Positions 122 through 44,918 of a stretch of 64,000 nt of DNA are shown here, piece after piece. The notes beneath the pieces were generated by a model. That model did not search any database and was not told the origin of the DNA. It was given only the letters and a program-made list of their open reading frames with translations. Both the position numbers and the translations under genes were made by a program. Every line of letters begins with the position of its first letter. Within the stretch, counting starts at the first letter, position 1. The DNA comes from Octopus vulgaris (Eukaryota): assembly GCA_951406725.2 (NCBI GenBank), contig OX597819.1, forward strand, positions 104,408,001 through 104,472,000, written 5' to 3'.

Positions 122-1387
122 GCTGACATCAATATTATTAAATAAATCTTCATTATTATTATGATGATCATTTTTTCTTCTTGACCTTTCTTTCTTTCTT
201 TCTTTCTTTCTTGTTCTTGCACAACGTCTTCCTCACCCTATCTCTACTTTTCCCCTTTTTCTCCACTTCCCGCCCCTTCTTCTCCACGTCTTCTTCCCAT
301 TATTATCATAATTGCGATCATCATATTCACTCCTCTCCCTTCTCCCAAACATTCACTCTCCTACCATTATGTTACAGCAATAAACTAATTATATACATAA
401 TTTGTGGAACAATTAACAACAAACAACAACTGTAAACAAATATTAAACAATAACAATAAACAATAACAACCAAGTTGAAGAGAAATACATAATTAACATC
501 AAAAATACATAATTAAAAACTGCTAAAATATAATCTCATGATTGCAGACTAATTAATTAATAATTAAACACAACCGCAGACATCATAATTGCGATTATAA
601 TTATGTTTTCCGCCTTTGATTATTATAATTTTTTGATATTGTTTTATTGATGCTGTTGTAATTGTTGTTGTTGTTATGCTTCTTTTTTATTGTGTGTTGC
701 TGTAGATTAAGCTTTTGTTGTATTGATGTTGTTGAGTTAAGCTCTTCTTGTTGCTGTTGTTAATATTATTGATGTCTGTTGTAGTTGTTAATGTTGTTTC
801 TGATGTTGATATTTTTTCATGGTGTTCGTATTGATGTTTATAATGTTGACATAGATGTTGGTGTGTTCTTGTGTTATTGGATGTTTTGTTTTTTAATATT
901 ATTTTGATGTGGATGTTGTTGATGTTTTTTAATATTATTTTGATGTGGATCTTCTTGAAGTTGTTTTGTTAATGCTGCTCTCACTATTAGCGTTGATGTT
1001 GATTTGTGATGTTGTTGCTGTTATCCTTATTGTTGGTATGTTCTTGTGTCCTTGAGTTGTTGATATCATACTGTGTTGCTATTGTTGTTGATGATGGTAT
1101 TGTGCACATTTTTGTTTGTTGTTGATATTATAGTTGTTGTGCTCTTGTATTATTATTATTGTCTTTGTGTTGTGTTTTGTATTGTGTTGCTCATTTTGAC
1201 GTTACATTGTTTTATCTCATTAAGTGTTTGCTGTGTCTATGTTGTATTATGGTGCATTTTTTGTTAGCCGCATATATTATTATTATCATTCAGTAGTTTT
1301 ATTTTTATAGCGTGCTTTCACTTCACTGCCGAGCGCAGCTCTGTGTGCCTTGGGTATGTGCTGTGATTTGTTGTGATGCTCTGATGG

Positions 1388-2430
1388 TTATTGTATGGAA
1401 AGTCTTCTGCGTAGGATATGTGCAGTGCCTAGTAGTGCAATTTTCTGTATGTTATATGTGTTTGTAAGTCCTGGTGTTTTTGTTATGTATTTGTCTGAAT
1501 ATTTTTTATCATGCCTAATGCAACTACTATGATAGGAATTGTTTCTGTTTTTAGATTCCACATTCTGGTTACCTCTATTTCCAGGTCTTTATATTTTGAA
1601 AGTTTCTCCATTTCTTTTAGAGGCACGTTGTCATCTGCCGGTATAGATACATCAATTAGAAAGCATTTTTTTCTTCATGATCTCTGACAACTATATCTGG
1701 TCTGTTGGCCTTAATTTCTCTATCTGTGTGTATCGGAATATCCCAGAGTATGGTTGCTTTCTCGTTTTCTGTGACCTTTTCTGGTGTGTGCCTATACCTT
1801 CTTTTTTCTGTTGTTATTCCATAATGTTGGCATAGCTTCCAGTGTATGTAGGTTCCAACTCTGTCATGTCTGTGAATATATTCCTTCTTAGCCAGGACTG
1901 GGCAGCCAAAGATAATATGATTTATTGTTTCTTGTCCATCTCCACATATTCTGCAGTTACTTGTTATATTTCTTTTCATTACATGTTTTTGGTAATTTCT
2001 GGTGGGTAGGCTTTGGTCTTGTGCTGCAATTAAGAATCCCTCTGTCTCTGCTTTGAGTCCTGAGCCTCTCAACCATTGCTGGGATTTTTCTTTGTCTATT
2101 TCTTTTGCATTTAGTTTGGTCCAGTATTTACCATGAAGGGGCTTTTCTTGCCATCGTTTTATCATGGTTCTTTGCTGTTCTAGTTTTAGTTTGGATTTCA
2201 TTTGTTTTATAGCTTTTGTTGTTTCTTCTTCTTCTTCTTCTTCTTCTTCTTCTTCTTCTTCTTCTTCTTCTTCTTCTTCTTCTTCTTCTTCTTCTTCTTC
2301 TTCTTCTTCTTCATATTTATTAGGTGGTATGATTTCTTGTTTGTATTTGTCAGCATCCTTAAATACTGAGAACAGTTTTTTGTTTTGCTCGTGTTTTGCC
2401 GCTATTTGTATCAGTTTTCCTTCCTTCTGA
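1388..2430 (-). pseudogene. Family A linker (poly-Glu), CCHC zinc finger and restriction-like endonuclease
   Basis: LKAETEGFLIAAQDQ, CRICG, RHD, RPD motifs; one-base frameshift in the T-run near 1666. Confidence 0.88.
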
Positions 2431-2664
2431 AGTAGATATTTTTACAGTCCTATGGTGGTTATTTTATAGTAGTTTTCCAGCTGTATAAGGCCTCTACCAC
2501 CTTCTATACGTTGTATATATAGTCTTTCTATGTCAGATTTTGGGTGATGCATCCTAGATCCTGTCATTATTTTTCTTGTTTTCCTATCTATTTTGGTCAG
2601 TTCATTTAGTTAAGGATATTGTAGCTGTAACTTATAACTGGGACAGCTAAAGTGTTAATACCTA

Positions 2665-3824
2665 TTATCTTGTTTTTAGCATTGAACTCTGTTTTTTGTA
2701 TTGATCTAACTCGTCTATAATATTCTTTTTTATTTTCTCTTTCATTTGTGTGTGTTGTGTCTTATCTAGTTCATGGATTCCTAAGTATTTGTAAGTTTGG
2801 CTTTGGTCTAATTCTTTTATTTCATTGGTTTTATTTAGTGTGATGTTGCTACTCTTAACTAGTTTTCTTCTTTTCAGGGTTACTTTGGCGCATTTTTCTA
2901 ATCCAAATTTCATATCTATTTCTTTGGTAAATCCATGAACTGTCTTTAATAGTGTTTCCAGCTGTTTGTCATTTGCAGCGTATAGTTTTAGGTCATCCAT
3001 ATATAAAAGGTGGCTGATCGTTTTGCCGTAACATTTATATCCGCATCCAGTTCTATTTAGCATATCAGATAGAGGTGACAGTGCCAAGCAGAAAAGGAGT
3101 GGAGAGAGCGTATCTCCCTGGAATATTCCTCTTCTAATGGGGATGTCTTTGGTTTTCATGAGTCCCTCTTTTGTTTGGAGCTGTAGCACTGTTTGCCATT
3201 TATTCATAGAGTGTCCTATGAATTTTATAATTGTTGGTGCTACTTTGTTAATGGCTAGTGTTTCGAGGATCCATGTGTGGGGGTGCTATCAAACGCCTTT
3301 CTGTAGTCAATCCAGGCCATACTGAGGCTTTTCTTCTTTCTGTGGCTGTCTTCAGTTATGACTTTTTTAATCATTTGTTGATCTTTACAGCCATATGAGC
3401 CTTTGCGGCATCCTTTCTGCTCTTCTGGAAACAGGTTGTTTTCGTTCAGGTGCTTGTTCAACCTTTGCGATATCACTGCAGTAAATGCCTTGTACATTGT
3501 AGGGAGACAGGTTATTGGTCTGTAGTTTTCTGGTTTTGCTGTCTCATTTGATATGGGAATTAAGATGGTTTTCCCCTTCGTGAGCCATTCAGGCATTGTC
3601 TCTGGCTCTGCTAGTATGTTTTTAAAGTTTTCAGCCAGCTTTTTGTACATTCCAGTTAGATATTTCAACCAAAAGTTGGGGATCTTGTCATGCCCAGGTG
3701 CCTTCCAGTTGCTTAGTCTTTGCAGTGCCTGGGTGACCTCTTCAGTTGTTATGGGGGTCCATAACAATGCTGAGTTTGTTGTTTTAATACTCCTTTTTTT
3801 TTTGGTTGTTCGTTCGCCGACCAT
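2665..3824 (-). pseudogene. Family A reverse transcriptase (frameshifted)
   Basis: ORFs 3255-3824 and 2665-3207 carry the RT motifs, including YMDDLKLY. Confidence 0.92.
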
Positions 3825-4372
3825 ATTTCTCTCCAGAATTCTTCCACTTCTTCTGCCGTTGGTGCTGCAGTGATTTCTATTTTATTTTGCCAAGTTCTTG
3901 GTAGAACTTTTGGGGTTGGAGTTGAACTTTTTGTTTTGTTCAAAGAAGCGCTGGCGTTTCTCGTACCGCGGATCCTTTGTGCTTTGGCAAGGATATCTTG
4001 CTTCAGCTTTTCTTTTATCTCAGGTAAATCCTTTTCTGTGATGTATTTGCGGAGTATTTTTGTTTTCTTTTTGTTGCTCAGTAGCGTTGATTGTCTACTG
4101 ATTTCATTAAGAATCGACAGATCTTTTCTCATTTTTTGTGTTTTGCTTTGGTTGTTATTTATCCACAGGGTTTGTTTGGGTGGTGGTACTCCTGTTTGGA
4201 TAGGTTTGAGTGAGTATCCAGCTTCTTTTGTGGCTGCAGTGGCTGCTGCGTATACTAAGTCATTTAGCTCAGTGATATCGCTTTTTGTTTCAGTGGCTAT
4301 TAGTTCCGTGACGGCTAGGTTTATGCTGTTTATAATTGGTGTTGTTGTTTCGTCTATTTTGATTTTTGGGAG

Positions 4373-5209
4373 CTATGGTCGGTGGTCCATTTTGAGCTCT
4401 GTGGTTTTTAGTTCTTTGATTATTCTACTTTTTATATTATCATAATCATTAGGCTCCCCTTCGTTGTTTCCAGGTTTTAGATTTGTGTCGCTTTCGTTCT
4501 CATTTTTATGTTTGTTTGTCGTGTTTTGGCTTGCTGTTTGTCGTGTATTATTATGCATTCTTACGGTCTGGGTTTGTTGTTTTTTGTTTACATCGTGTTT
4601 GTTGGGAATGTTACGTTTGTCTTCGTGTTTTACTGTTTCAGTGTTTATATTGTTGGGCATTGTTGTGTGGCTTCTATCTACATTTTCCTGATATATTTTT
4701 TCTTTTAGATGTTCTATTTCTATTTCTGATATTTTTTTTGCTTTGAGAATGTATCTTCGTATGTTAGCTGGTTTATTAGGGTTCATTGCTGTATCCAAGT
4801 CTATATTTATGTTATTTTCCTTCCATATTTTATATGTATGTGTTGTTGTGTTTTCATTTTTTTGGTAGAGCACTGCTGTGAAGTAAGCGTGTAGAATAGA
4901 AATGTATTCCTCACGTGTCCATTTATGTCTTTTGAGTTTTATTTGCGGGACATTAGGAACAACGTCCGGCCCATTATTTTGACGGTCGTCATTTTCGTAG
5001 GGTACCGGTCCGTTCATTTCTGTTGTCACATTGTTTTGCACGTGTAGTTTTTCGTACATTTTGTGTTGTAAGTTTAAAGTGCGTACTTCCCGATTGTTAT
5101 TCTTGGGTTGAATAATATCGGTGTTGTTTAATTTCTTCGTAGTTTTTTTGTACATGGTGTTTGGGGTCGGGGATGATCTGGTGTTGATGGATCGTAATGT
5201 ACCACGCAT
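4373..5209 (-). pseudogene. Family A N-terminal region (Myb-like KWTREE motif)
   Basis: 278-aa ORF; KRHKWTREEYISILHAYF resembles family B KEKWTREDNKEVLAAFY. Confidence 0.75.
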
Positions 5210-5428
5210 GTTTACATGTGTTGTGTTAGAGGTGGAGATGATATCGAGTTAAAATACATCATTTCGTTTCGAAAATAGTAATAAATTTCAATGAGAATTA
5301 CTTACTCGGATATAGTCCAATCCTTTGTTAGTAAATTTTTGGCTCCATACGATGTCTTTGTTTTCGATGTTTGTGGATAGAATTCGGGGCTCTGTTTTAT
5401 CGTTCTCACATCTTAAACGTCCCCGGTG

Positions 5429-5659
<231 letters not shown>

Positions 5660-6157
5660 GAGTGACAGAGCAGTGCATGCCATCAAAGTGACAGTGGGGT
5701 AAAATACACGAAGTCCCAGTATATCCTTCATGACTACACGTCTGATAAGGGTACACCAGGCACATGCATCACAGTCATATCTGCACAACATGGTGATCTC
5801 GTATCAAGATAAACAGCGTATGACCTTGCAGGTGGTGCCCAGTTAGAATTTTCTTCTGGTCGAGTAGTCCATCCCGCTCAAAAGGTCCCTGAATAATATC
5901 TGTTTAAGGATGTTGAACGAAACACACATCTTTCCAGGGGTGAATTATTTAAACCCCAATGAATTCCTCTCAACACATGGCTATGATACTCCTGCACTAC
6001 TTCTATTCATGATCAGGGATGCACATATCGTCAACCACTAGGTGACAAGATCAACTGGTTAAGGTCAAGCGACTGACAAGCAAATCTGTGGTATTGAACA
6101 GAATATTTGCTGTAGCTCATCTTTCATACCAAGACAAAACAATGTACATGATAACAC
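5660..6157 (-). mobile_element. ~557-bp non-coding TAA-associated element, copy 1 (5'-truncated)
   Basis: Homologous to 28244-28800, 36111-36575 and 42079-42366; same fixed end at gagtga(g/c)agagcagtgcatg. Confidence 0.85.
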
Positions 6158-12137: not shown

Positions 12138-12162
12138 CATACATATACATACATATATATAT
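11985..12162. repeat. (TA)n/(TG)n compound microsatellite
   Basis: Direct reading. Confidence 0.9.
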
Positions 12163-12442: not shown

Positions 12443-12522
<80 letters not shown>

Positions 12523-12526
12523 ACAC

Positions 12527-12690
12527 ACGGGACGGGCTTCTTTCAGTTTCCCGATCCGCTCACAAGGATTTGGTCAACCAGAGACTATAGTAGAAGACAC
12601 TTGACCTAGGGTGGTGCCACGCAGTGGGACTGAATCCAGAAGCATGTGATTGGAAAGCAAGTTCCCTACTACACAGACTCTCCTGTGCCT
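12527..12690 (-). mobile_element. CORE-like tRNA SINE (left monomer)
   Basis: Reverse complement of 47111-47258 (ttcagtcccactgcgtggcacc..caagtgtcttctactat). Confidence 0.75.
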
Positions 12691-12731
12691 ATATATATAT
12701 ATACATATACATATATATGTATGTATGTACG

Positions 12732-12776
<45 letters not shown>

Positions 12777-13129
12777 AGGCCTACTCTCAATCGGTGTAGT
12801 AGCACGTAATGGAGTCCCAAGCTATGAGTCAATTAGCATGTAAACCACTAGGAGTGAAGGACACCTAATTCTCGTTACAATCCCTTCCAGGAGAAGGTAA
12901 ATTCAAATTTGAGCAAAACTGAGTGTCAGTTGGCTTGTGGTCGTCTCAGCCTCCGTTGTACCACTGGCTTTATAGCTTATTGTGCTCAAAGTGGATTCAT
13001 CGCCGTGCAAAACTTTATTCATTCAAAACGAATTCTTGCACATCTTGAACTGTCGGAACATTTGCACCTTCACTGCGATGACTGTTTGATGTTTGATGTT
13101 GGTGGTCGGTGAATTCCTTGACATGTCTC

Positions 13130-13460
13130 CTTTAACTCTGAACTTTTACTAAACAACATTTTACTTGGCATGAATCATCTGAATTCAATTTCACTTACCT
13201 TTATTCCACACGACCGCACAATATCTCACTTCCCTCCTCTAAAGAGCACTCTACTACATTCTACATCACCCAATAAACTCTATTCCACTCTGCATTACTA
13301 TTACTTATCACAAATCACGCTACCCATCTTCATCAACTCTTCACCATTTTCCAGGCTATTGCGTGGTTGCACGATTTACAACAAACAGCATATAAATCTC
13401 CTTAAAATCCCTCTCCCAATGGTCTTCAAAGTGGGGAAGGGCACGTTATAGAATGCAGTT
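13130..13460 (+). mobile_element. Possible degraded Penelope-like RT fragment
   Basis: LHYY...NSSPFSRLLRGCTI resembles the PLE thumb motif LHY.S.HP....SIPFSQ.LR..RIC. Confidence 0.3.
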
Positions 13461-13838
13461 CTAGATACCGTTTTCAAACACAATGGTAATGTTTGGAATG
13501 CTTTTGATTCTATGACCGAGAACCATTCTATGGCTGAAACTAAATAGCCAGGAGCAAAACATAAGTATTACCATTACTTGTAGCATCACTCTGTTTCAAT
13601 CTACCCCTCAAGGTCTCGTAATTACACTCGTTTCCAGTCACCTCACCTCATTTCATTTTCATCCCTATTTTGCAGCTCATTTCCTTCCTCAGCTCGCCAA
13701 ACCCACCCCAAAAAATCTAAAAGGAAACACCAAGACATACTTACATATACATTAGCGCACAAGGACACCAAATAGTTATGATCCTCATCTTCATCATGAT
13801 CATCTCATCAATAGCCTCATCATTATAAACAGACTTAT

Positions 13839-13842
<4 letters not shown>

Positions 13843-13892
<50 letters not shown>

Positions 13893-14031
13893 TATCATCA
13901 TCGTCGTCGTCTTTGTCGTCGTCGTCCTCATCAATGTCATCGCCGCTGTCGTCATCGTCTTTGTTGTAATCATCATCTATATCAACAGCCTCAGCATCGC
14001 CGTCATTCTCCTCCTCATCATCATCATCATC

Positions 14032-14094
<63 letters not shown>

Positions 14095-14240
14095 TTCATC
14101 TTAATCATCATCATCAACAGCAGCAGCAGCATCACTGCCGTCGTCATCAACATCCCTATCGCCTGATCATCATCACTATCAGCTTCATCATCATCATCAC
14201 CCTCATCACCCCAGCCCTCCTTCTCATCATCATCATCATT
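13843..14240. repeat. (CAT)n-rich array
   Basis: Direct reading. Confidence 0.9.
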
Positions 14241-14817
14241 GTACTCAGATTTATCACCGTTGTCTCTACTAAAGATGGCAGTGTGCGTCAGTGTGTGCAG
14301 ATGTATGTGTATATCATTATGTATGTAAATGTGAGTATCTCTGTGCGTAAGGGAACGTTTATGTGTAGATGTATGTGAAAGTGAATGTGTATGTGTATGC
14401 ATAAGCGCGTAGATACACGTACATACACGTACATACACACTTACATACACACGCGCACGCGCGCACATACACACGCGAGCACACGCGCACACATACACAC
14501 GCGCACACGCGCACACATACACACGCACGCACATAGTTATATGAATATTTTAAAATCTGTCTGTGTTCTGCTTACGTAGGTTTATGTGTATACGTACATG
14601 TAGGTGTATGTGTAAATGTGTAAATTTATGGATATGTTTAGATGCATTTACGCATATGTTTATGTATGTGTTTTTGTTTGTGTACTGAGAGGATAAACTT
14701 GAAATTTATAACTAAAATAAAGATAAATGTGAAAGATGGGTAATATAAAGAAAAGTTAATAAATATCACATCAATAAAATAAAATGTAAAGAACAAGTAG
14801 TATGAAAATACATCGAA

Positions 14818-14831
14818 ATAATAATAATAAC

Positions 14832-14911
<80 letters not shown>

Positions 14912-14916
14912 TAATC

Positions 14917-14985
<69 letters not shown>
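14818..14985. repeat. (AAT)n array with no inserted element
   Basis: Direct reading. Confidence 0.95.
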
Positions 14986-16025
14986 GTAAATAAAATGTAT
15001 GAATAATAACAGAAACTGAAAAAAATTGACAGAAATTAAAGTAAACAAAATCGTAAATATAAAAATATATATAAAAAGATGACTGTAGAATATGAATAAC
15101 AACAGCAACAACAAAAATAATAATTTTCTTCCTGTTTTATTGTGTAGTTTTTGAATAATAAAATAAAATCCGATATAAAATATAATAATACGATAATAAT
15201 AACGATAATGATAATAATAATATTAATAATCAAAATAATCTCTTTATGTCATTTATTGTTTATTGATTTATTTAAAAGAGCATAATAGTAAATATACTGA
15301 TAAATAATAAATACGAAGATGAAAATATTAATAAATGTTTAAAATGATAATAAGATATAAAAAATGCAATAAAGATGGTAGCTCAATGAAAAGCGCAAGG
15401 CAATGTTTACTGGCTTTTAATTCATTTGACTGGATATATATGTTTATTTATTTCTTTAGGAAAATAAAAAAAAAAAAGAAATCATCTGTTTATATATATT
15501 TTGTACCATTTTTTTCTTTAAAATTTTCTTTCCTTTCACGTTTATCAAATGACATATTTTGCTCCAGGAGTATAATAATAATGAAATTAAGAAGAAATGA
15601 CAAAAAAAAAACAAAGAGAGAGAGAGAAAAAGAAATAGTTATAACAACAACAGTATAAAAGCACTGACAAGTAAATACAAAGACAACGATATAAACAGTA
15701 CAAACAACAACGATAACAATAACAACAACAAGGATATCAAGAACTAGAAAAACAGCGATGAAGAACCGGAAAAATCTGTGATAAAAGCAGTGAAAGAAAC
15801 ACCATATGAAGACTATTAGATTACGCCATTAAAAATAGATTTTGGAAATGAAGATGGAGGAAACAATTTTCTGAATGATTTCAATATGTCTTTGAAAGAT
15901 TCCTTGATTAGTTACATTTTTAAAAAAATTATTTTTCATTTTTTTCTTTGTAATTTCTTATTTTATATTTGAAAAATAATTAAATATAAAAAATTAGGGC
16001 GTGGTGTATGTATATGTGATTCTGC

Positions 16026-16290
<265 letters not shown>

Positions 16291-19235
16291 AAGTTGTTGA
16301 TACGCTAGTGTGTGGGATAGTGTGTTGGTGTGTGATTTCTGTAATATTAATTTCAATTTAGAAGTTGAAGTGTTGTTTATTTCCTTGTCTTTCATATTTC
16401 TCTTCGTTTTGTTTGTTACTTTCTGTATGTGTTTATTTTGCGGTGTGTATTTGTGTGTTTGCTTTGCAGAGTATATTTGTGTTTGTGTTTGTGTTTGTGT
16501 GTATGTGTGTTTCTTTGCGTGTCTATGTGTGTTTGTTTGTGGTGTGTTGGTGTGTATTTCATTTGTTTAATAGTATCTCTCGATGGTTCTATATTTGCTT
16601 GATAAACTCTTTGTTTATTTGACTGTCTGTTTGACAATTTTCTTCACTATTTTGCCCTTTAATCTCCCCACTCAATGTCCTTATCTGTCGTTATGCTCAA
16701 CCCTATCTCCTCCCTTCTCTTTGCTAGCAATAATTGCTGCACTGTGTCAATATTTTCATAAAAATTGAAATATGATATTTTGATAAAGAACACTTCTACA
16801 ACTCCACCTCCCTGCATCGTTCTGCAACGCTCTGTAGCTCTACCAAGCTTTCAATTAAGAGAAGTGTCACATAAGAGTCAACGTGTTAAAGGAGAATTTA
16901 ATTTGTTTGGTTTTGTTTTCGTTGATAAGGCGTTGTCGTAAAAGAGCCGGGGTGACATGAAAAATGTTCTCTTTTATAAACGAAACTGCTACAAAAGCAC
17001 TGCGGCTTAATTTGTCTCCAAAGAGAAATCAAACGTTTTAAGTTATATGAGCATGTTTTTATGGACTTGTCTGAGTAGGCGGAGCAGTTGTATATGGCTT
17101 GCAAGGGTCATATCTGACAGTAACAGTGGAGTTTAAGAGAGAGAATGCAGCGAGTGGTTTAATAATACGCTTTGAAAAGTCTCAATGGTAAAATATATGA
17201 CGCGAGGTTCGCAAAGTATTTTCTCTTTCGAATATCGGCCACATGTGTGGTGTTGGAACATATGTTTCTGTGTATCGGATTTTCATTGTTTGGTCAATAT
17301 TAATGATGTGATTGATAGTGCCGTCTAATTTTCCAACATGTGATATTATGGATTAACTTATGTGTATTCTCCCTTATAAACAATGAAGTGAATTTTGTTG
17401 ATTATTCGGCAGTTAATTCTTGCAGGTCGATCTGCAACTTAAACACTCCTTTACCTGAATCAGACTTACGCAAACAGTATTAATCGTAAGTAATATTTGA
17501 GTTTCCGGTTACGAGAAAATGTGGGTATATGAAAGTATTGATGGAAAATACTGTATAATGTGGAATGTTTACAAGGGAAGGGTGGGATGGAGTTATGCGT
17601 AAATATTTCGAAAAAAGAAAATTTCTTGTAAATAGATTGAAGACATTGTAAAATATAATCTAAAAATGGTCAATAGAGAAACATCAGTCGGCCTCAATTT
17701 TTTCTTTGTTTCTTTTTAAAAACTATTCTTTAACTTTGTCTCTATCGCACTTCCAACGACATCTCACAAACACCAACTTAACCTCTACAACGACAACCAT
17801 CGTCTACCACGTCACCTATACCACAACCTCAATGCAGAGACTACATCCCCAGCTCACATCTCTTCGAAGTCAATTTTGCTTTCAATTCTTTAGATGTTGA
17901 GAAATAAAATACTAATCAAAGGGTGTGAATTGTTGGAACTGTAAGGACGTCGAAAGAGATGCTTTGCAGTATTTGTTCAGGCTCCTTGAGGCCTGAATTC
18001 AAATACCTTCATAGCTTATTTGCGTAGTAGACTTAATCCGCCGTCAGGTTTAATACATCCGCCTGGCAGTTTGTGTGTCTTTAGCAGAGCCCGTTCTGTT
18101 GCATGTATTCGGGCTAGTTCTCCGTTTAAGGATGACTTCTTTCCTCGCACCTACTAATCTCGAAAACTCTGTAAAGGTTTATGGACACTTTCTTTCCTCC
18201 AGACCCAAAGAAAATATACCCTACAAATACCACTTATATCTCCAACACCAGCCCCAGCATCAGCACAAGTACCAGTGGCACCACCAACATCCCTTCCATT
18301 ACCAGCACCACCAGCACCTCCTCCATTAACCATAATTAAACAATATTATTCTATGACCAATATCGTTTATAATTTTTTTCGACAAATAAGAGAGTCAACT
18401 TCGAATAAGTTTATTCCTTATTTGATATGCTTCGTGAAAATGCCTTCTTCACTATATTTTTATTCAATGTGACCATAATTATTAAATCAAAAAATACACA
18501 AATAGATTTAACTATTAGTTGACTAAAGTTAGATATCTTTATGAAGAATTAACCATTTTACTGCTATCACTCCAAAATATCCCGAAGCGACGTACATTTC
18601 AAATTGGAATAAACGTATACTGCATACTTGCAGTAGATAAATTGTTACCTCACTTCTAAAATATAGAATTTGCAGTCATTATTTCGCATCTATAAGAATT
18701 TGCATTAGGTTTGACGTTTATAGAGTTCAGCCATGCTTGAGTACATTTTATCGACTTCAAAAAAGATGAAAGGTGAAGTTGATTACGGCGGAATTTAAAC
18801 TCCGAGAACATTCCTTACGTTGATTTGGTGGCATTGGTGATGTGGTTGCTGGTAGATGTATTCGAGGTTATTTGGGGGGTTTTAATGGAGTTGTTGATTA
18901 TAGTGATGGTAGTAGTGCTGCGAGTATCGGTGGTCATATTGATGGCGATACTATCGGAGATGGGTTTCGTGGTGTGTGGTGCTGTTTGAACTGTTAATAG
19001 CTGCGTAATAGTGGTGTTGCTGGGAGTGGGGTAATTTTTCAGTGCAATAATAGTTGATTTTAATGGCAATATTTTTATAATTAATCGACTGATTATTAAT
19101 TTAGTATCTATCGAAACACTATGGTGAGCCCACATTACTCCCCAAGAAGCGTAGGGCCAGTTTCCTGGTTTCTCTGGCGTATATATTACTATCTGAACCT
19201 CTAAATGTAATAGTGTTTAGTTGAATACCAATAAA

Positions 19236-19239
<4 letters not shown>

Positions 19240-19268
<29 letters not shown>

Positions 19269-19475
19269 TGTATGTATGTATGTATGTATGTATGTATGTA
19301 TGTATGTATGTGTGTATGTATGTACGTATGTATGTATGTATGTTTGAATGTATGTATGTATGTGTGTATGTGTGTGTGTATCTATCTGTGTCTTTCTCTT
19401 TCCTTCTCTTTCTCTTCATCTCTCTCTCTCCCTCTCTCTTTCTCTCTTTCTCTCTCTCTCACTCTCTCTCTCTCT

Positions 19476-19564
<89 letters not shown>

Positions 19565-19585
19565 TAATATATACATATATATATG
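19240..19585. repeat. (TATG)n/(TC)n/(TA)n compound microsatellite
   Basis: Direct reading. Confidence 0.9.
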
Positions 19586-21659
19586 AATGTCTGTTGATAT
19601 GCATATATACAAAGATATGACAACCAGAGGCTATAGTAAATGTAGCGGGATAGTAGTATCCGGGACCTCGTGGCTGAGAAGCAAAGCCCTTTGCTGCTGA
19701 GTCATGCCTACGTAAATATGAGAGACTTCGGTGATCAGAAACTGTAAAAATTGAAGTCGGAATCATGTCTGTAATCCAAAAGCTCCAATCTTATCATACT
19801 GAGTCACGTTTTTATATTTGAAAATTACTACAAGGGTACACGAGTTTGTGGAGTACTCTGCCGCTTCTCATGCGAGTTCCATATATATACCGATTTTGCT
19901 TCAGAAGAATCCATATGTACCTGTCTATATGCATCTAAGTGCAGAATTTTCCTTATATGTGTATGCTTATATATAAATACAACCATATATACGTATACAT
20001 GCATTCGATGTGTGTATACTTGCTTGCATATAATTATGTATGTAAGAATATATGTATGTACGCATGAATAATTCATGCTTAGATAATGTATGTATATATG
20101 GATGTATGTCTGCATGCATTTCGTTATGTTTGTATATGCACCTGCGTGTATATATATTTATATATATATGATTATGTGTATATATACACTTACAAGCTTG
20201 TAATTACGTATGAGTGCTGGCATGCATGTACTTATATATACTCGTATGTGTATATGTATGCATGTATTTATGCGTGAATGTGTGTACGAATAAATGTATG
20301 CCTCTTTCTGTGCTTGCAAGCAAATAGTCATGTATGTTTACATTATGTACGTTAGCATTGTGCGTGCTTGCATGCATGTATGCATGTGTATATGTATTGA
20401 TGTATGCACGGATATATAAGTGCATGCGTTTGGATGCATGTACTATGCAAATGTGTGTGTACGGATATATGCATAGATATATGCATATATGTGTTTCGAT
20501 GCATGTATGTATATGCATATATGTGTTTCGATGCATGTATGTATATGCATATATGTGTGTATAGGAATGATTAAGCATGTGAGCTGATGACATTTTTCAC
20601 TTCTCAGATTTGATGAACCAAAGAATTGTAATTAAATAAGTAATCAGTGCTGTTTGTTAATTAGGTTAACATTATTAGTGGTGATGCTGGTGTGGAGGGC
20701 GGTGATATGCGTGTCTGCATATGCGTATAATTATATGTGAATATGAATGTACATATTGATATAGCCTTGTTCTCCCTTTCTCTCTCTTTCTCTCTCTCTT
20801 TCAACCCCTCTCTCTCTCTCTCTCCTTCTCTTGTTCTTAGATATGTACCTACGCATATATGTAAATACATACACACATACATGAATGTGTGTGTTTCATA
20901 AATGAGGCACGTGTGTATGTGTGTATATAAAACTGTATGTGAATACGATTAAGCATATTGGTATAGAGTTCAGCTATGTATATGGGTGCCTAGCTTTATG
21001 ATTCTAAAATCTGTGTTGTTGTGATATTGTGTTTTATAAAGATGCATAGAGTGATATTACTCACACAAGTACACGCATGAATACACACACATACAACAAA
21101 TAATATGTGAGAGGATATAACTCTGAATGTGCATTTAGCGGTACTATATATGCATGATGGACTCTCTCGTCCAAGACAACGTATGAGTATTCGACGTTTT
21201 CCAAACGACCTGCACCAGTGATTTATTTATAGTGATCAAATGTTCGTGATCCACAGCTTACTCTCTTCATCACATCAACATTGTCTGAACAGGTGTACTG
21301 TGTACAACGCGTCAGGTGTCAAAGTGATCAGTCAGGGAATTGAGCTATCCAGCTCAAGAACTCCCTTAACATAAATCTTTTGGTTGCTCTCTCACTCACA
21401 TCAATACGACGAATATTTTCGGTCACAACATCACTCTTACCTTTGCTATTTCGAACGGACGTCCATTTGCTCCCTACCTCTCCAATTCGTGTGTGCTACA
21501 CCACACCTACAATCTCTTTCATTTTTAAACAGATCCTCGCCACTCAAATCATTTTTCTCACGCTCGATTTCCTTCCTCCCGAAACTATTCGTTGAGTAAC
21601 CTAAACAATGGCATCCACCAAGTTGTTTATCATCATTCGGCGTTGACCACTGATACTTT

Positions 21660-21900
21660 AAACTCTCCCACTAGCGATGTTAAAGGTAACAAGGAGTCTT
21701 AAAATCCTCAAGATATAGATGCATAAGGTGTTACAGACTGCCAGAATGATGTATGCTCCTTCCTGATAGAACCTCTGAAGGCATTATTTCAGCTTTCTAA
21801 GAAATCAACCCCGCCTTTATGAACATTCAACTTGCCTTTGTAAATGTCCCTCTAATGATTCCTGTGCCTTTTTTCTATTCACTGTTTTACATGCAACTGA
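21660..21900 (+). mobile_element. Possible degraded CR1/L2-like RT fragment
   Basis: VCSFLIEPLKALFQLS resembles RT domain-0 L..PL..LF..S. Confidence 0.25.
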
Positions 21901-23160
21901 CACTTCGGTACTCAACATTTGATCTAGAATGCCAGGAGCAAATGAAAATTTGTGGGAATATTTTTTTAAAACTCAAGTCATATTCGATTACCTGTCACAG
22001 CCTTGAGAAAGGGAGAGTGAAGGTAAGAGAAAAATAGAGATAGAGAGGGAGCAAGAGAGAGCGAGAGAGAGTGTGTGTGTGTGTGTGAGTGTGTGTGTGT
22101 GAGATAGAGAGAGAGCAAGAGAGAGAGCAAGAGAGAGAGAGGGGGGAGAGAAAGAAAGAGTGTGTGCGACACATTCTGATCACTACAATCAATACTCCTC
22201 TTCATGACGTTAACTTTGTGGAATCCCCTTTTGTCCATTCAAAACTGGCCAGACAAAGAGAATAAGTGTTCCTAACATCTGTGTTCATTCTCAAATGTTA
22301 GCAACATGTGGACTCTACTAAAGGCGACACTCAAGGTCCAGATAGCGGGGTCAGTTAAATTAGACGTAGGATTATATCGATCCCCCAAAACAGGCAGTAT
22401 CTCTTTAATCGACTTCCATGCCTTTTCTTTTAGGATACGGCGAGCAGCGGGTATGCTACAAGAGACTTGCCAATGTGTTGTGCAGAGGAATTCAACATGA
22501 AACACGGTAGTTGCGAAGCAAAACTCTTGATCACCCTGTCACGGCTCCCGCTCAAATATTCAAGCTCAGTATTAATCGTACCAATCTCGCTATGGTCAAC
22601 AGGATTCATGAATATTGGTCTTGCATCATGACACCACTATAGAATCATCAATATCAATATATATCGATATGTCACCGGCGTTACAGTTAGCGTTATGATC
22701 ATTACTAGGATCAACGGTATCATCAACTACATATAAAATACCATCTCCCCCACTTCCGCCGCCGCCACTGCCGCCACAACTGCCGCCGTCACTCCCGCCG
22801 CCACCGCCGCTGCCCCCCCCCCCACCACCACTACCGCCGCAACAACAATAATCACAACTATAACTACCGCACCACCAGCTTCAAAACAACAGTCACAATA
22901 ACCAGGATAACTACTCTCACACTACCACGGCTACAACCACCTCCACACCCCGACTACAATCCCGACCGTCACAACCGCCACCATCACCACCACAACAACA
23001 ACAACCATAACAATCATCAAACAAATTTTCTACTATTGCCATCATTAAAACAAGGGCAAAAAGAACAACCTCATCGCATACCATCATTACTATCATCATC
23101 ACATCGGCCACTACCACACCGCTACGAGTACCACTGCCATCACTGCCACCGTTATGAAAT

Positions 23161-23209
<49 letters not shown>

Positions 23210-23335
23210 CTACAGAAGATCACGTTCTTTTCAAGTGAAAATAGTAATACTGGAAATTATAATGGCGAAGCCAATGATGATGATGATCATGCTGATGCTG
23301 ATGATGCTAATGATGATGACAATGATGATGATAAA

Positions 23336-23417
<82 letters not shown>

Positions 23418-23419
<2 letters not shown>

Positions 23420-23625
23420 CCTTTCTACTATAGGCATAAGGCCTAGAATTTGTAGGAATAGTCGATCACATCTACCCCAGTACTCAAATGGTACTAAATT
23501 TATCGACTCCCCAAAAGATGGAAGGCAAAGTCGACCTCGGCGGCATTTGAACTCAGGACGTAACGACGGAGGAAATACCGCTAAGCATTTAGTACAGCGT
23601 GCTAACGATTCTGCCAGCTCGCCGC
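23418..23625 (-). mobile_element. Meta-core SINE, full length, with (ATT)n tail at ~23336-23417
   Basis: Reverse complement of head, core and tagaaaggattatt tail. Confidence 0.85.
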
Positions 23626-23664
23626 GTTAATAATAATGATAACAACAACAACAACAACAACAGC

Positions 23665-23734
<70 letters not shown>

Positions 23735-24264
23735 TACAAAAGGCGGACGCCTATATTCTCCACAGCGTAATGTTATCTCATAATAACAACATAACGGCCA
23801 CGACGACACCACCACCACCAACAACAACAACAACAACAACAAATACAGCAGTAACCTGACAAGAACAGCAGAATCAACAACAAAATACCACATAGATGAT
23901 AATGATAACAATATCCGTGTATAAATAAATATATAAATAAGTACCTAAATAAAAGATATTTGAAGACGCTAAATAAAAAAATGAGACAACGACTTTAAGA
24001 TCTCATTCCTTTGTTTGTACGTGAATGATTGCTAATCTGAAGGTTTGTTTGTGCGACATGTTTCTAATTTTTTTATTGTTGTTCGCCATAATTGTTAATC
24101 CGTTCCTGAATGGTGGGAATATATTGACAAGTTTAAAGCTCCTTAGGAATAAATTGACTCATAGAAAATTTTGAATAGACAATACATATATGCACATGTA
24201 TATCCATCGACATATGCATACATTTATATGTATACATATACATATACATACATACACATATATA

Positions 24265-24326
<62 letters not shown>

Positions 24327-24709
24327 AGTGTGTGTATGTATATGTAAATATATTTGTATGTATATATATATATATATATGTGTGTCTAAATATATGTCTC
24401 CCTTTCTCTGTATATATATATATATATAGGCAAGTCCGGAGAAATAGTTGTCTGAAGCCAAGCAGACGACAGCTTGTTCAACTAGTAGACATCATTTTTT
24501 TCTTTCGGGTTTGTAATTTATTTAAGCATTCATGTCTTCTTTTTGGCGATTGGGTAGAACTGGTGGTGGTGGCCGTTAGGATTAAGGTTAAGATCATTAA
24601 TAGAGAACTGTATTTAGGGACTTTAGATGTTTTACGCACACTTATGCACATACATACATACACATACATACACTTAAAATGATATTTATGAATGCATGCG
24701 TGTGAATGT

Positions 24710-25414: not shown

Positions 25415-26471
25415 ATACGAAAATCTTGGTTTAGTAGAAAACTTTCGTTCAAAAAATATAATTTTCAACTAGAAAATACTTTGAAATGTTTACGTTTCAA
25501 TACTAAAATAAATACCTCTTTAAAATAAGATATATCTATCTGGTATACACACTTTGTTAAAGTAGTTTACCTTTTATTACTCTGTATGACTTTTTCACTT
25601 CTCATGTATAGCATCCGTTGTAATGTGTACTAACTTTTTCAGTGTATGGACCTTGTAGTCGAAATGTTATTAACCATTATAAATAATGCAGAAAAATACA
25701 TTAAGTTTTATATTTTCTATGATTATATTTTCACCTTCCTTTCATTATATAGCTTTTTTCTATTTCATTATTTCTTCATCAATGCCGATGGCCTGGATGA
25801 AACGTTAGAGCGTCGAACAAAATGTCAGGCTTTGTTTCTTCCAGGTCTTTATAGCTTCAAAGTTATCGTTGAATGTCACCCATTCTGTGTCGATAAAATA
25901 AAGTACCAGTTCAGTAATGGTTTTCATGTAATTGACTAATTCTCTCTCCTCAGAATTGTTGGCCTTGAGTCTAAATTCGTAACAATTCTTCGGAACTGAC
26001 GAAGCTGAAGCACCTGCTCCCCCTTTTTCAGTATTCAGATATGTTTCTCTGGGTAGGACAGCGGCATGTTGTGGGTAATGATGTGTAGGCGTGCACTGAG
26101 GCTACGACATCTCCAGGTTAACTTTGCCTTTCACATTCTCGCGGTCGATAAGTCCCAGTTCTGTTTAGGGTTCTATGTAAATTGACTAAGTCCTTTTCCC
26201 AAATCGCCTAGCCCTGTGTCTAAATTTGTCTGGTCAAGGTTGCTCAAAAGCTATTGCCTAGATTGAAAATTTCGTTGGTCAAGGAGAAAATGATTTCTTC
26301 TGTAAATTTTTAGTGATGATTTGCTACAATACGGTTATGAATAAAAACAAAAGCATGACAAGCATGATTCCTACTCATTTGGGCTGGTGTATGATAGAAA
26401 TGTAGCTATTGGATGTACCACCACAAATGGTGGTTATTGGCATCTGAACACGATAATATTAAGTATAATTA

Positions 26472-26703
26472 GGGTGGCGAGCTAGCAGAATCGTTAGCAC
26501 ACCGGGTGAAATGCTTAGCGGTATTTCGCCTGCCGTTACGTTCTGAGTTCAAATTCCGCCGAGGTCGACTTTGCCTTTCATCATTTCAGGGTCGATTAAA
26601 CAAGTACCAGTAACGCACTGGGGTTAATGTAATCGACTTAATTCGTTTGTTTGTCCTTGTTTGTCCTCTCTATGTTTATTCCCTTGTGGGCAATAAAGAA
26701 ATA
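26472..26703 (+). mobile_element. Meta-core SINE with 15-bp target-site duplication
   Basis: aatattaagtataat at 26455-26469 and 26704-26718. Confidence 0.9.
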
Positions 26704-26784
26704 AATATTAAGTATAATAATATTATATTATCCTATTTGATTTATAGAGGACATTAAATACATCATAGTAGCAGACATTAAATA

Positions 26785-28220: not shown

Positions 28221-28243
28221 TTATTATTATTATTATTATTATT

Positions 28244-28798
28244 GAGTGAGAGAGCAGTGCATGTCATCAAAGTGACACTGGGGTAAAATATACGAAGCCC
28301 AGTATACCCATCATGGCTACCTGTCTGATAAGGGTACACTAGGCACATGCATCACAACCATAAGTACACGACATGGTGATCTCATATCAAGATAAACAGC
28401 GCATGAACCTGCAGGTGGAGCCCAGTTAGAATTTTCTTCTGGTCGAGTAGCCCATCCCGCTCAAAAGGGCCATGAATAAGGGTTGTTTAAGGATGTTGAA
28501 CGAAACACACATATTTCCAGAGGTGAATTATTCAAATTCCAAAGAATCCCTCTCAACACATGGCTATGATACTCCCCTACTACTTCTGCTTGTGATTAGA
28601 GATGCACATATCGTCAGCCACTAAGATAAATGCTCAACTGATTAAGGTCAAACAACTGACAAGCAAATCTGTAGTATTGAGCAGAATATTTGCTGTAGCC
28701 CATCTTTTATACCAAGATAAAACAACGTACGTGATAACACTTCCAATCAGTTAAGATCAGAAGCCATGAGAGCCACTGCCTGGTACTACATCAGGGCA

Positions 28799-28800
<2 letters not shown>
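28244..28800 (-). mobile_element. ~557-bp non-coding TAA-associated element, copy 2 (full length)
   Basis: (TTA)n on both sides; 5' end aatgccctgatg matches the start of copy 4. Confidence 0.88.
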
Positions 28801-28868
<68 letters not shown>

Positions 28869-28871
<3 letters not shown>

Positions 28872-29273
28872 TAGTTTTATTTTTATAGCGTGCTTTCACT
28901 TCACTACCGAGCGCAGCTCTGTGTGCCTTGGGTATGTGCTGTGATTTGTTGTGATGCTCTGATGGTTATTGTATGGAAAGTGTTCTGCGTAGGATGTGTG
29001 CAGTGCCTAGTAGTGCAATTTTCTGTATGTTATATGTGTTTGTAAGTCCTGGTGTTTTTGTTATGTATTTGTCTGAATATTTTTTTATCATGCCTAATGC
29101 ACCTACTATGATAGGAATTGTTTCTGTTTTCAGGTTCCACATTCTAGTTATCTCTATTTCCAGGTCTTTGTATTTTGAGAGTTTCTCCATTTCTTTTAGA
29201 GACACGTTGTCATCTGCCGGTATTGATACATCAATTAGAAAGCATTTTTTTTCTTCATGATCTCTGACAACTA

Positions 29274-29276
<3 letters not shown>
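28869..29276 (-). mobile_element. Dong-like family A, 5'-truncated copy
   Basis: Near-identical to 1291-1696; intact RLE C-terminus (ORF 28966-29205); (TTA)n on both sides. Confidence 0.92.
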
Positions 29277-30052: not shown

Positions 30053-30123
<71 letters not shown>

Positions 30124-30300
30124 ATGTTTGACTTTTGCTTTATATTTGTACAAGTTGGCTCCAAGTCTCACCCAGAGACCTCAAGAGACAACAGGCTGGA
30201 AGTTCACGTTGTTGTTATGCCTAGTGTGCCATATATTTGGTAGTTTTTTGTGTTGTACTAGTGGATGTCTAAAAAAAAAGGTTTGTTTTAAACCTTGAGA

Positions 30301-35532: not shown

Positions 35533-35756
35533 AGGTGGCGATCTGGCAGAATCGTTAGCACGCAGGACAAAGTGCTTTGCGGCATTTCGTCCGCCTTTAC
35601 GTTCTGAGTTCAATACCCGCTGGCGTCATCTTTACCTTTCATTCTTTCAGGTCGATGAATTAAGTACTAGTGAACTAGTGAAACACTGGGTATCAATGTA
35701 ATCAATTAGTTTCCTCTCACCAAATTTTCAGGTCTTGTGCCTTATATAGAAAGGAC
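35533..35756 (+). mobile_element. Meta-core SINE followed by (TTC)n
   Basis: ggtggcgatctggcagaatcgttagc head; 3' half nearly identical to 6291-6415. Confidence 0.85.
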
Positions 35757-35891
35757 TCTTCTTCTTCTTCTTCTTCTTCTTCTTCTTCTTCTTCTTCTTC
35801 TTCTTCTTCTTCTTTCTTCTTCTTCTTCTTCTTCTTCTTCTTCTTCTTCTTCTTCTTCTTCTTCTTTTTTTTTTCTTCTTCTTCTTCTTCA

Positions 35892-36110: not shown

Positions 36111-36570
36111 GAGTGAGGGAGCAGTGCATGCCATCAAAGTGACACTGGGGTACAAATATACGAAGCCCAGTATACCCATCATGACTACTCGTCTGATAAG
36201 GGTACACCAGACACATGCATCACAACCGTATGTGCGTGACATGGTGATCTCATATCAAGATAAACAACGCATGACCTTGCAGGTGGGGCCCAGTTAGAAT
36301 TTTCTTGAGGTCGAGTATCCTATCCAGCTCAAAAGATCCCTGAATAAGGATTGTTTAAGGATGTTGAACAAACCACCTATGTTTCCAAAGGTGAATTATT
36401 CAAACCTCTAAGAATTCCTTTCAACACACGGCTATGATACTCCCCAACTACTTCTGCGTATGATCAGAGATGCACATATCGTCAGCCACTAAGGGATATG
36501 GTAAACTGTTAAGGTCAAACAACTGACAAGCAAATCTGTGGTATTGAGCAGAATATTTGCTGTAGTCATC

Positions 36571-36575
<5 letters not shown>
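36111..36575 (-). mobile_element. ~557-bp element, copy 3 (5'-truncated)
   Basis: Homology to the other copies; (TTA)n on both sides. Confidence 0.85.
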
Positions 36576-36630
<55 letters not shown>

Positions 36631-41854: not shown

Positions 41855-42060
41855 ACAAATTTAGGCACAAGGCCAGCAACTTCGGAGAGGGAATAAGTCG
41901 ATTACATATACCCCAGTGTTCAACTGCAGCTCATTTAATCGATCCCCAATGGATAAGACGAAAAGTCGACCTCGGCGGAATTTGAACTCAGATATAAGGA
42001 CGGACGAAATGCGGCTATTAAATTTGCCCGACGTGCTAACTATTCTGCCAGCTTGCCCCC
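41855..42060 (-). mobile_element. Meta-core SINE
   Basis: Reverse complement of head, B-box and core. Confidence 0.8.
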
Positions 42061-42078
42061 TTAAAAATAATAATAACA

Positions 42079-42366
42079 AATACACTGATGCAATACCAAG
42101 CAGTGGCTCCCATTGCTTGTGACCTTAGTTGATTGGAAGTGTTATCATGTACATATTTTGTCTTGGTGTAAAAGATAGGCGACAGCAAATATTCTGCTCA
42201 ATACCGCAGACTTACTTGTCAGTTACTTGATCATAACCTGCTGAGCATGTAGCTTAGTGGCTGACGATATGTGCATCTTTGATTACGTGCAAAAGTAGTG
42301 GCAGAGTATCATAGCCATGTGTTGAGAGGAATTCTTTGGGGTTTAAATAATCAACCCCTGGAAACA
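42079..42366 (+). mobile_element. ~557-bp element, copy 4 (5' half, opposite strand, after an AAT repeat)
   Basis: Reverse complement of 28514-28800. Confidence 0.8.
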
Positions 42367-42545
42367 AGGCCTGAAATTTGGTGGGAGTGGACTAATCGAT
42401 AAGATCGACCCCAGCGTTTCACTGGTATTCAATTTATCGATCTGAAAGGATGAAAGGCAAAGTCAACCTCGGCGGAATTTGAACTCACAACGTAGCGACG
42501 GAAAAATTACGGCTAAGCGCTTCACCCGGCGTGCTAACGATCCGC
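42364..42545 (-). mobile_element. Meta-core SINE
   Basis: gaaaggatgaaaggcaaagtcaacctcggcggaatttgaactc. Confidence 0.8.
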
Positions 42546-44502: not shown

Positions 44503-44523
44503 CATTATTATTATTATTATTTA

Positions 44524-44918
44524 AGGCGGCTAGCTGGCTGAAACGTTAGCATGCCGGGCGAAATACGTAGCCGTATTTCGTCTGCCGTACGTTCTGAGTT
44601 CAAATTCCGCCGAGTTCAACTTTGCCTTTCATCCTTTCGGGGTCGATTGAATAAGTACCAGTTAAGCACTGGGGTCGATATAATCGACTTAATGCCTATG
44701 TCTGTCCTTGTTTGTCCTCTCTGTGTTTAGCCCCTTCTGAGTAGTAAAGAAATAGGTATTTCGTCTACCGCTACGTTATGAGTTCAAATTCCGCTGAGGT
44801 CGACTTTGCTTTTCATCCTTTCGAGGTTGATGAATGAAGTACCAGTGACACACTAGGATCGTCGTGATCGGCTACTACCCTTCCCCAAATTTCAGGCCTT
44901 GTGCCTATAGTAGAAAGG

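What the first reader, a model, noticed from the sequence alone, without database searches (positions are those of the whole stretch)
28244..28800. A ~557-bp non-coding retroelement that behaves like a Dong/R4 parasite (four copies)
Seen: copies at 5660-6157, 28244-28800, 36111-36575 and 42079-42366. Three share an exact 3' end (...gcactgctctctcactc followed by AATAAT on the element strand). Two are truncated at different 5' points, a TPRT signature. Two share the same 5' start (aatgccctgatg / aatacactgatg). Polarity relative to the TAA repeat always matches the Dong-like elements, including copy 4, which is flipped together with its AAT run. There is no ORF, no clear tRNA A/B box, no TIR or LTR, and no visible match to the seven Dong-like 3' UTRs here. 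A stem atactggg/cccagtgt can form near the 3' end. Inference: a SIDE-like non-autonomous element mobilised in trans by a TAA-targeting RLE protein. It may already exist in repeat libraries as an unclassified family.
Basis: partly seen in the sequence, partly recalled or inferred. Interest (0 to 1): 0.75.

Follow-up and report, generated by a model that had tools for sequence, protein, structure and literature searches.

The report
Headless parasite RNA targeting AAT microsatellites
A 557-base repeat with no gene of its own sits in tens of thousands of copies almost only inside AAT microsatellites of this animal genome and likely borrows the copying enzyme of neighbouring Dong-type jumping genes, although no tail shared with them was found.

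Summary
The element is real. It is a discrete 557-bp non-coding family with an estimated 31,000 3' ends (range 19,000-60,000) in a 2.8-Gb genome, including identical copies on different contigs. 125 of 138 3' ends run into (AAT)n against a 1.4% background, and none into (ATT)n; the Dong-like LINEs show the same polarity. 3'-anchored copies are often 5'-truncated (11 of 30) while 5'-anchored copies are rarely incomplete (2 of 30), the pattern of target-primed reverse transcription. None extends into an ORF except two chimeras. It is likely mobilised in trans by the young Dong-like families that have intact ORFs. The SIDE label is not supported: I found no homology to 11 Dong 3' ends or 2 Dong 5' ends, and no ribozyme or small-RNA head. 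The sense strand folds strongly (z -4.0; reverse +0.75), without covariation support. Unexpectedly, nt 104-273 are 96% identical to the centre of a 489-bp Chapaev3-type miniature DNA transposon; decayed CpG sites indicate that the retroelement was the donor. The scan's earlier notes hold no look-alike. Verdict: a new variant of a known kind, closest to Entamoeba EhSINE1 and R2 SIDEs.

The parts
28244..28800 (-). Full-length copy of the 557-bp non-coding retroposon (nt 1-557)
   Evidence: 93.7% to consensus; 40 near-full-length genome matches at 93-100%
5660..6157 (-). 5'-truncated copy (nt 61-557)
36111..36576 (-). 5'-truncated copy (nt 91-557), (AAT)n on both sides
42079..42369 (+). Older inverted copy (nt 1-292); 3' half lost, abuts another abundant repeat
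28221..28243 (-). (AAT)n run downstream of the 3' end (target/tail)
28801..28868 (-). (AAT)n run upstream of the 5' end, between the element and a Dong-like 3' end
28528..28697 (-). nt 104-273: segment shared with the centre of a 489-bp Chapaev3-type miniature DNA transposon
   Evidence: 164 of 170 identical between the two consensuses; 90% for this copy
28244..28582 (-). nt 219-557: predicted structured 3' domain; nt 220-231 predicted to pair with nt 545-556
   Evidence: z -5.3 sense, -0.9 antisense; prediction only
28297..28344 (-). nt 457-504: predicted long hairpin with a 5-nt loop, 53 nt from the 3' end; candidate recognition element
   Evidence: mean pair probabilities 0.91-1.0; not recognised by a Dong D/D2 hairpin model
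28869..29276 (-). 5'-truncated Dong-like LINE (family A) directly upstream, same polarity
1275..5430 (-). Near-full-length broken Dong-like LINE, family A (candidate helper family)
   Evidence: intact 1253-aa relative L141
30122..35380 (-). Broken Dong-like LINE, family B (candidate helper family)
   Evidence: intact 1284- and 1287-aa relatives L148, L152
50200..50387 (-). Internally deleted copy of the Chapaev3-type miniature element

Best explanation
It is an abundant non-coding retroposon family that sits almost only in (AAT)n microsatellites and is likely copied in trans, by target-primed reverse transcription, by the reverse transcriptase-endonuclease protein of the genome's Dong-like LINEs. 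Shown: discrete unit, fixed 3' end, variable 5' truncation, AAT flanks in one polarity, no coding capacity, near-identical dispersed copies. Inferred mechanism: (1) lacking a recognisable promoter, it is likely transcribed by read-through from upstream DNA (a Dong element, a tRNA-headed repeat or a host transcript), so the RNA would carry AAU repeats on both sides; (2) a Dong-like protein would bind the folded 3' domain, nick the (ATT)n strand, and the AAU tail would pair with the nicked primer, giving the exact 3' junction; (3) early stops give truncated copies joined at short AAT microhomologies, and full-length cDNA would anneal to the upstream repeat, so no ribozyme is needed; repeated priming of the second strand would give the tandem 5' fragments. 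Families A and B are the likely current helpers. A genomic copy likely later donated nt 104-273 to a Chapaev3-type DNA element.
For: Target: 125 of 138 3' ends have >=3 AAT in the next 18 nt against 1.4% background; by a looser rule 135 of 138 AAT, 0 ATT. Eight Dong-like 3' UTR families tested show the same polarity, e.g. A 28 of 29, B 33 of 35. Polarity of truncation: 11 of 30 3'-anchored copies lack the 5' end, 2 of 30 5'-anchored copies lack the 3' end, Fisher p=0.010; 9 of the 11 start directly after an AAT run; copies of only 16-27 nt between AAT-type runs exist (8 of 30 loci). Tandem 5' fragments occur in the element (10 of 111 by a motif test; at least 11 copies of nt 1-69 in L157) and in full-length Dong A copy L141. 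Activity: identical copies on different contigs in 2 pairs among 33. A and B have intact 1253-1287-aa ORFs with a reverse transcriptase, match R2 proteins in the PDB (E 5e-29), and have many 3' UTRs at 0-1% divergence. Dong elements target TAA repeats (PMC3812793, passage). Read-through is possible: 39 of 127 copies lie just downstream of a Dong or element 3' end, 8 of 127 downstream of a tRNA-like head.
Against: No sequence or hairpin homology with any helper: best p 0.08-0.10 among 11 3' UTR consensuses; Dong hairpin model misses the element; nhmmer finds nothing in 1.14 Mb of masked loci. The helper is therefore not identified. Transcription, strand and RNA ends were not shown. The fold has no covariation support: among shared variants at predicted pairs 17 keep and 9 break the pair, none compensatory, and 20 internal deletions do not join predicted-close positions more than chance (p=0.18). 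88 of 127 copies have no recognised upstream element. The R4/Dong clade label of the LINEs rests on target, domains and recalled motifs; no tree with named references was built. Target-site duplications cannot be read inside the repeat.
Confidence: 0.75

Rival explanations
1. A true SIDE or bipartite derivative: the ends come from a Dong family that I did not sample, or that is extinct, and recognition is by a shared 3' tail.
For: Only 11 3' UTR types and 2 5' ends were compared, whereas an Octopus vulgaris annotation lists 51 Dong-R4 families (PMC13282606 supplement row). By eye the nt 457-504 hairpin resembles the family D hairpin in position and loop.
Against: D similarity p=0.097 and not found by the covariance model; D has no open frame above 366 aa among 150 matches. 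A degenerate hairpin pattern gave 32 hits, all with the element's own core. A last-16-nt pattern with non-element upstream letters gave 210 hits; none of the 30 opened had a Dong ORF joined to it. The 24 best-supported loose ends on the 3' 177 nt in four runs were all element variants or AAT (1,022 weaker ones not shown).
Confidence: 0.15
2. It is mobilised by another LINE clade (RTE, CR1, L2) or a Penelope-like element, and the AAT runs are tails made by slippage or passive accumulation.
For: These clades are recently active in an octopus genome (PMC13282606 Table 1); microsatellite tails are common in RTE (PMC9115989, passage).
Against: AAT runs lie on both sides, including directly upstream of truncated copies (142 of 188 5' flanks AAT, 4 ATT), so the target pre-exists; no direct or inverted terminal repeats; no hammerhead geometry.
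Confidence: 0.06
3. It is a polymerase III SINE with an unrecognised small-RNA head, still using Dong protein.
For: 19 of 30 3'-anchored copies start within nt 1-14, as for SINEs with an internal promoter; the 5' 103 nt fold on the sense strand (z -2.3).
Against: No A/B box, three internal T4 runs, no tRNA, no Rfam family.
Confidence: 0.1
4. It is merely the 3' UTR of a LINE, or a DNA transposon.
For: nt 104-273 are shared with a TIR element; two copies are fused to Dong coding DNA (L081, L191).
Against: All 30 best full-length copies and 30 5'-anchored copies begin at a microsatellite run or at a tandem 5' fragment, not in an ORF; no Dong protein match, best E 0.33; the TIR arms are not part of the element.
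Confidence: 0.02

Closest known systems
EhSINE1 / EhLINE1 of Entamoeba histolytica (PMC2996970, passages read; PMC3118788, passages)
   Same: 500-600 bp, no ORF, no identified small-RNA precursor, partner LINE with a restriction-enzyme-like endonuclease.
   Different: EhSINE1 shares about 70 bp with its LINE's 3' end and is not microsatellite-targeted; here no shared tail was found, insertion is confined to (AAT)n, and copy number is in the tens of thousands.
R2 SIDEs and R2/R1 hybrid SIDEs of Drosophila (PMC3414825, abstract read; PMC3774820, passages)
   Same: Non-coding, site-specific, mobilised in trans by a related class of protein, plausibly processed from read-through transcripts.
   Different: SIDEs consist of an R2 5' ribozyme plus the helper's 3' end and are described as rare; this element shows neither part and is very abundant.
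Dong elements (B. mori Dong, DongAg, DongBg; PMC3812793 passage; PMC3774820 passages)
   Same: TAA/AAT target and polarity; B. mori Dong also starts with G after the TAA run.
   Different: Dong is autonomous and B. mori Dong has a self-cleaving HDV-like ribozyme; none was detected here.
Bipartite non-autonomous LINEs (RIME, NARTc, Vingi derivatives, Bov-A; PMC5786205, abstract, introduction and methods read)
   Same: Non-autonomous retroposons without a polymerase III head.
   Different: They are homologous to both ends of their LINE; this family is not, for the families tested.
Chapaev3 DNA transposons (PMC4079192, passages), for the 489-bp element that shares nt 104-273
   Same: 5'-CAC...GTG-3' termini and TWA duplication (12 of 20 copies with both ends).
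   Different: Non-coding miniature form whose centre holds a fragment of the retroposon; no autonomous partner was searched for by protein.

Membership tests
Non-autonomous non-LTR retroposon | Fixed 3' end with variable 5' truncation | tested here: met
   11 of 30 vs 2 of 30, p=0.010
Non-autonomous non-LTR retroposon | No coding capacity, no LTR or TIR, discrete dispersed unit | tested here: met
Non-autonomous non-LTR retroposon | Target-site duplication | tested here: inconclusive
   Unreadable inside (AAT)n
Dong/R4-dependent element | Insertion in TAA/AAT repeats in the helper's polarity | tested here: met
   135 of 138 AAT, 0 ATT; Dong families alike
Dong/R4-dependent element | Intact, contemporaneous helper ORF in the genome | tested here: met
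   1253, 1284, 1287 aa; young 3' UTRs
Dong/R4-dependent element | Helper belongs to the R4 clade by phylogeny | not tested
   Only RT domain, R2 similarity and target were seen; clade name recalled
Dong/R4-dependent element | Mobilisation by the helper protein | not testable with these tools
   Needs an in vitro or cell assay
SIDE (short internally deleted element) | 3' end homologous to the helper's 3' UTR | tested here: not met
   11 family consensuses, best p 0.08; family sampling incomplete
SIDE (short internally deleted element) | 5' end homologous to a helper 5' end | tested here: inconclusive
   No match to A or B; only 2 families had known 5' ends
SIDE (short internally deleted element) | 5' HDV-like ribozyme | tested here: inconclusive
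   Descriptor found 0 in the element but also 0 in 4 Dong 5' ends; no Rfam ribozyme
Classical SINE (tRNA, 5S, 7SL, snRNA head) | Small-RNA-derived head with polymerase III boxes | tested here: not met
Retrozyme / Penelope-dependent element | Hammerhead ribozyme and tandem monomers | tested here: not met
   Two core-like 7-mers without stem II and GAAA geometry (by inspection); no Rfam hit; copies are separated by AAT runs
Chapaev3-type miniature element (the 489-bp partner repeat) | CAC...GTG termini and TWA duplication | tested here: met
   12 of 20 exact 3-bp duplications, all TAA or TTA; definition from PMC4079192

The most novel reading that the evidence does not exclude
A promoter-less, head-less RNA that hijacks a microsatellite-targeting restriction-like-endonuclease retrotransposon with no sequence homology to it, recognised only by fold and an AAU tail, reaching about 30,000 copies by stacking into the target that each insertion regenerates, and old enough to have seeded a DNA transposon with part of its body. 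This would show relaxed template choice in a retrotransposon class usually regarded as stringent.
Probability: 0.35. Interest if true: 0.72.

Novelty: new variant of a known kind. Interest (0 to 1): 0.52.

Why it matters
Proteins of the R2/R4 type are usually thought to select their own 3' UTR (recalled; the SIDE abstract makes this point for R1 and R2). A natural passenger with tens of thousands of copies and no detectable shared tail makes the rules of template choice directly testable with intact helper ORFs from the same genome, which bears on RNA-templated gene insertion tools built on such proteins. It is also an active source of insertions covering roughly 0.6% of the sampled DNA, and a dated case of a retroposon fragment being captured and amplified by a DNA transposon. 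It may already exist as an unclassified consensus in automated repeat libraries.

Tried and rejected
Rfam on the window copy and on L002, L141, L152: no match at a gathering score. HDV descriptor: nothing in the element or in four Dong 5' ends, so uninformative. Homology to Dong family D 3' hairpin, seen by eye: rejected. An internal match of nt 298-351 to one family C copy (0 of 300 shuffles, one of 30 tests) was not recovered by nhmmer and is treated as chance. Expression: no RNA holder listed; contigs of guessed-RNA runs hold the element but show no strand, start or level. A-to-I editing imprint: pooled A>G exceeds T>C on the sense strand (301/17,749 vs 271/23,384, p=5e-6) but not per site (p=0.36); driven by a few recurrent sites such as nt 269, so left open. 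Deletion endpoints as a test of the fold: not significant. An ancestral TIR element without the shared segment: none among 30 loci anchored in its left part; two mosaics (L240, L241) look like rare recombination products and do not fix direction. My notebook first called the TIR element Tc1/mariner-type; the 3-bp TWA duplication corrected this. The ESM Atlas gave no result. Literature: eight answered searches listed no description of this family; Repbase, Dfam and the Zenodo library of PMC13282606 could not be searched.

Full report
Observation. The four copies are present at the stated places. Against a consensus of 33 full-length copies they cover nt 1-557, 61-557, 91-557 and 1-292 at 93.7, 90.2, 92.3 and 86.6% identity. 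The window also holds several Dong-like LINE pieces on the minus strand, each ending in (AAT)n. The own genome G000 has 2.8 Gb in 227 contigs. It looks like an octopus genome from recalled repeat resemblance and from earlier scan notes; I did not determine the species.

Abundance and age. A search with the window copy gave 9,217 candidates, 40 scored, all near full length at 93-100%. Exact 25-mers of the 3' and 5' ends occur 7,179 and 5,518 times, reversed controls 0. Only 11 of 48 incidental 3' ends and 16 of 44 incidental 5' ends contain these words, which gives about 31,000 3' ends (19,000-60,000) and 15,000 5' ends (10,600-24,600). Forty arbitrarily placed 10-kb stretches held 8 copies, 2,439 of 400,000 bases, 7 of them in the first 20 stretches. 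Divergence runs from under 1% to about 16%; two pairs of copies on different contigs are identical. Near-identical sequence is held by runs under six organism labels.

Insertion signature. 125 of 138 3' ends have at least three AAT in the next 18 nt against 1.4% of background positions; 108 of 138 continue exactly with two AAT units; by a looser rule 135 are AAT and none ATT, and of 188 5' flanks 142 are AAT, 4 ATT and 42 other, many of these tandem 5' fragments or internal deletions. Of the first 30 copies anchored by the 3' word, 11 are 5'-truncated at scattered points (nt 77 to 465); of the first 30 anchored by the 5' word, 2 lack the 3' end (p=0.010). Eight of 30 loci from a targeted pattern were stubs of 16-27 nt between AAT-type runs. 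Full-length copies often carry tandem 5' fragments, and so does a full-length Dong A copy. No copy in these sets extends into an ORF except two fusions to Dong coding DNA, L081 and L191.

Helper. The flanking LINEs fall into at least 11 3' UTR types with the same AAT polarity in the eight counted. Families A and B, 42.6% identical, have intact ORFs of 1253 and 1284-1287 aa with a reverse transcriptase domain and R2 proteins as best solved relatives; the CCHC and PD..D motifs are read by recall. Their 3' UTRs are the youngest; family D looks dead. TAA repeats are the known Dong target (PMC3812793, passage), and an Octopus vulgaris annotation lists 5 recently active of 51 Dong-R4 families (PMC13282606, parts 1-2 of 3 and supplement search). 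No shared terminus was found: alignments against 11 consensuses, a covariance model of the D/D2 hairpin, nhmmer on 1.14 Mb of masked loci, two discriminating patterns and loose ends in four runs were all negative. The sampling of families is incomplete, so a rare or extinct partner remains possible.

RNA anatomy. The sense strand folds better than all 100 shuffles (z -3.99), the antisense does not (z +0.75). The signal lies mainly in nt 219-557 (z -5.3 against -0.9), where nt 220-273 are predicted to pair with nt 545-556, 436-449 and 298-328; shuffling nt 219-273 raises the energy from -128.5 to -109.9 +/- 3.2. Against this, shared variants keep 17 and break 9 predicted pairs with no compensatory change, and deletion endpoints do not follow the structure overall, although one joins nt 227-232 to the 3' terminal strand (L256). 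No small-RNA head, polymerase III box or ribozyme was found; the ribozyme test lacked a working positive control. B. mori Dong does self-cleave at its 5' junction (PMC3774820, passages). Because 39 of 127 copies lie directly behind a Dong or element 3' end and 12 of 127 lie in the AAT run of a tRNA-headed repeat (8 with the head upstream), read-through transcription is a plausible source of RNA; this is inference.

Shared segment. Recurrent loose ends in all four runs led to a second family (284 and 399 exact 24-mers): 489 bp, inverted arms of about 120 bp, CAC...GTG termini and an exact TAA or TTA duplication in 12 of 20 copies with both ends, the hallmarks of Chapaev3 (PMC4079192, passages). 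Its centre matches nt 104-273 at 164 of 170. Its copies are about as old as the oldest retroposon copies, both 9% from their consensus in this segment. At two CpG sites the TIR element is nearly fixed for the decayed state (40 of 42 and 37 of 42) while the retroposon keeps CpG, including 10 of 11 and 9 of 12 of its oldest copies. Decay is directional, and the partner strands of nt 220-273 exist only in the retroposon, so the retroposon is the likely donor (about 85%).

Comparison and verdict. It works like EhSINE1 (PMC2996970, passages) and R2 SIDEs (PMC3414825, abstract) but fails the shared-tail test for the families examined, and it is not a classical SINE. Eight literature searches listed no description of it; repeat libraries were out of reach and may hold it unclassified. 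The scan's earlier findings had no look-alike by sequence. New variant of a known kind; interest 0.52.

Noticed in passing
L161-L180, L211-L240; window 50200-50387 (-): A 489-bp Chapaev3-type miniature DNA element (TWA duplication, long inverted arms) whose centre holds nt 104-273 of the retroposon; the 85 bp before that look like a splice acceptor and are of unknown origin.
   Followed up: yes
L157 (G000:C1:30147000-30150000): At least 11 tandem copies of nt 1-69 in front of one full-length copy; L158 has nt 1-235 duplicated.
   Followed up: partly
L010, L115, L160, L197, L206, L098 and others: A tRNA-headed repeat with an internal (AAT)n run serves as a landing site for the element (12 of 127 copies); an earlier scan note calls it the terminal repeat of a Penelope element.
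   Followed up: partly
3' UTRs of Dong-like families A, B, C, E, F, G, I (e.g. window 28869-28930, 30122-30200): Unrelated in sequence but sharing, by inspection, a hairpin with a 4-by-2 internal loop about 45-50 nt from the 3' end; a candidate recognition motif.
   Followed up: no
L159:5300-6001 and L191: Fusions of Dong coding DNA (families A and D2-like) directly to a truncated element copy; template jumps or later deletions.
   Followed up: partly
L240, L241: Mosaics between the miniature DNA element and the retroposon, probably ectopic recombination or conversion.
   Followed up: partly
element nt 269, 34, 240, 179, 273: Recurrent A>G on several subfamily backgrounds (nt 269 in 30 of 143 copies); could be RNA editing before reverse transcription; not significant per site.
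   Followed up: partly
window 5429-5659, 35750-35890; L120: (AAT)n runs often switch abruptly to (AAG)n or (GAT)n; biology or a sequencing artefact.
   Followed up: no
window 45787-46577 (+): Open frames with a CCHC-like motif and basic stretch (ORF1-like protein), unrelated to this finding.
   Followed up: no
window 9640-11125, 23413-23645, 26464-26709, 41856-42541, 44505-44925: A very abundant ~190-bp SINE-like repeat, often next to the AAT runs and sometimes in tandem.
   Followed up: no
L067: A tandem satellite with a short AAT run in each unit fills this 10-kb stretch.
   Followed up: no
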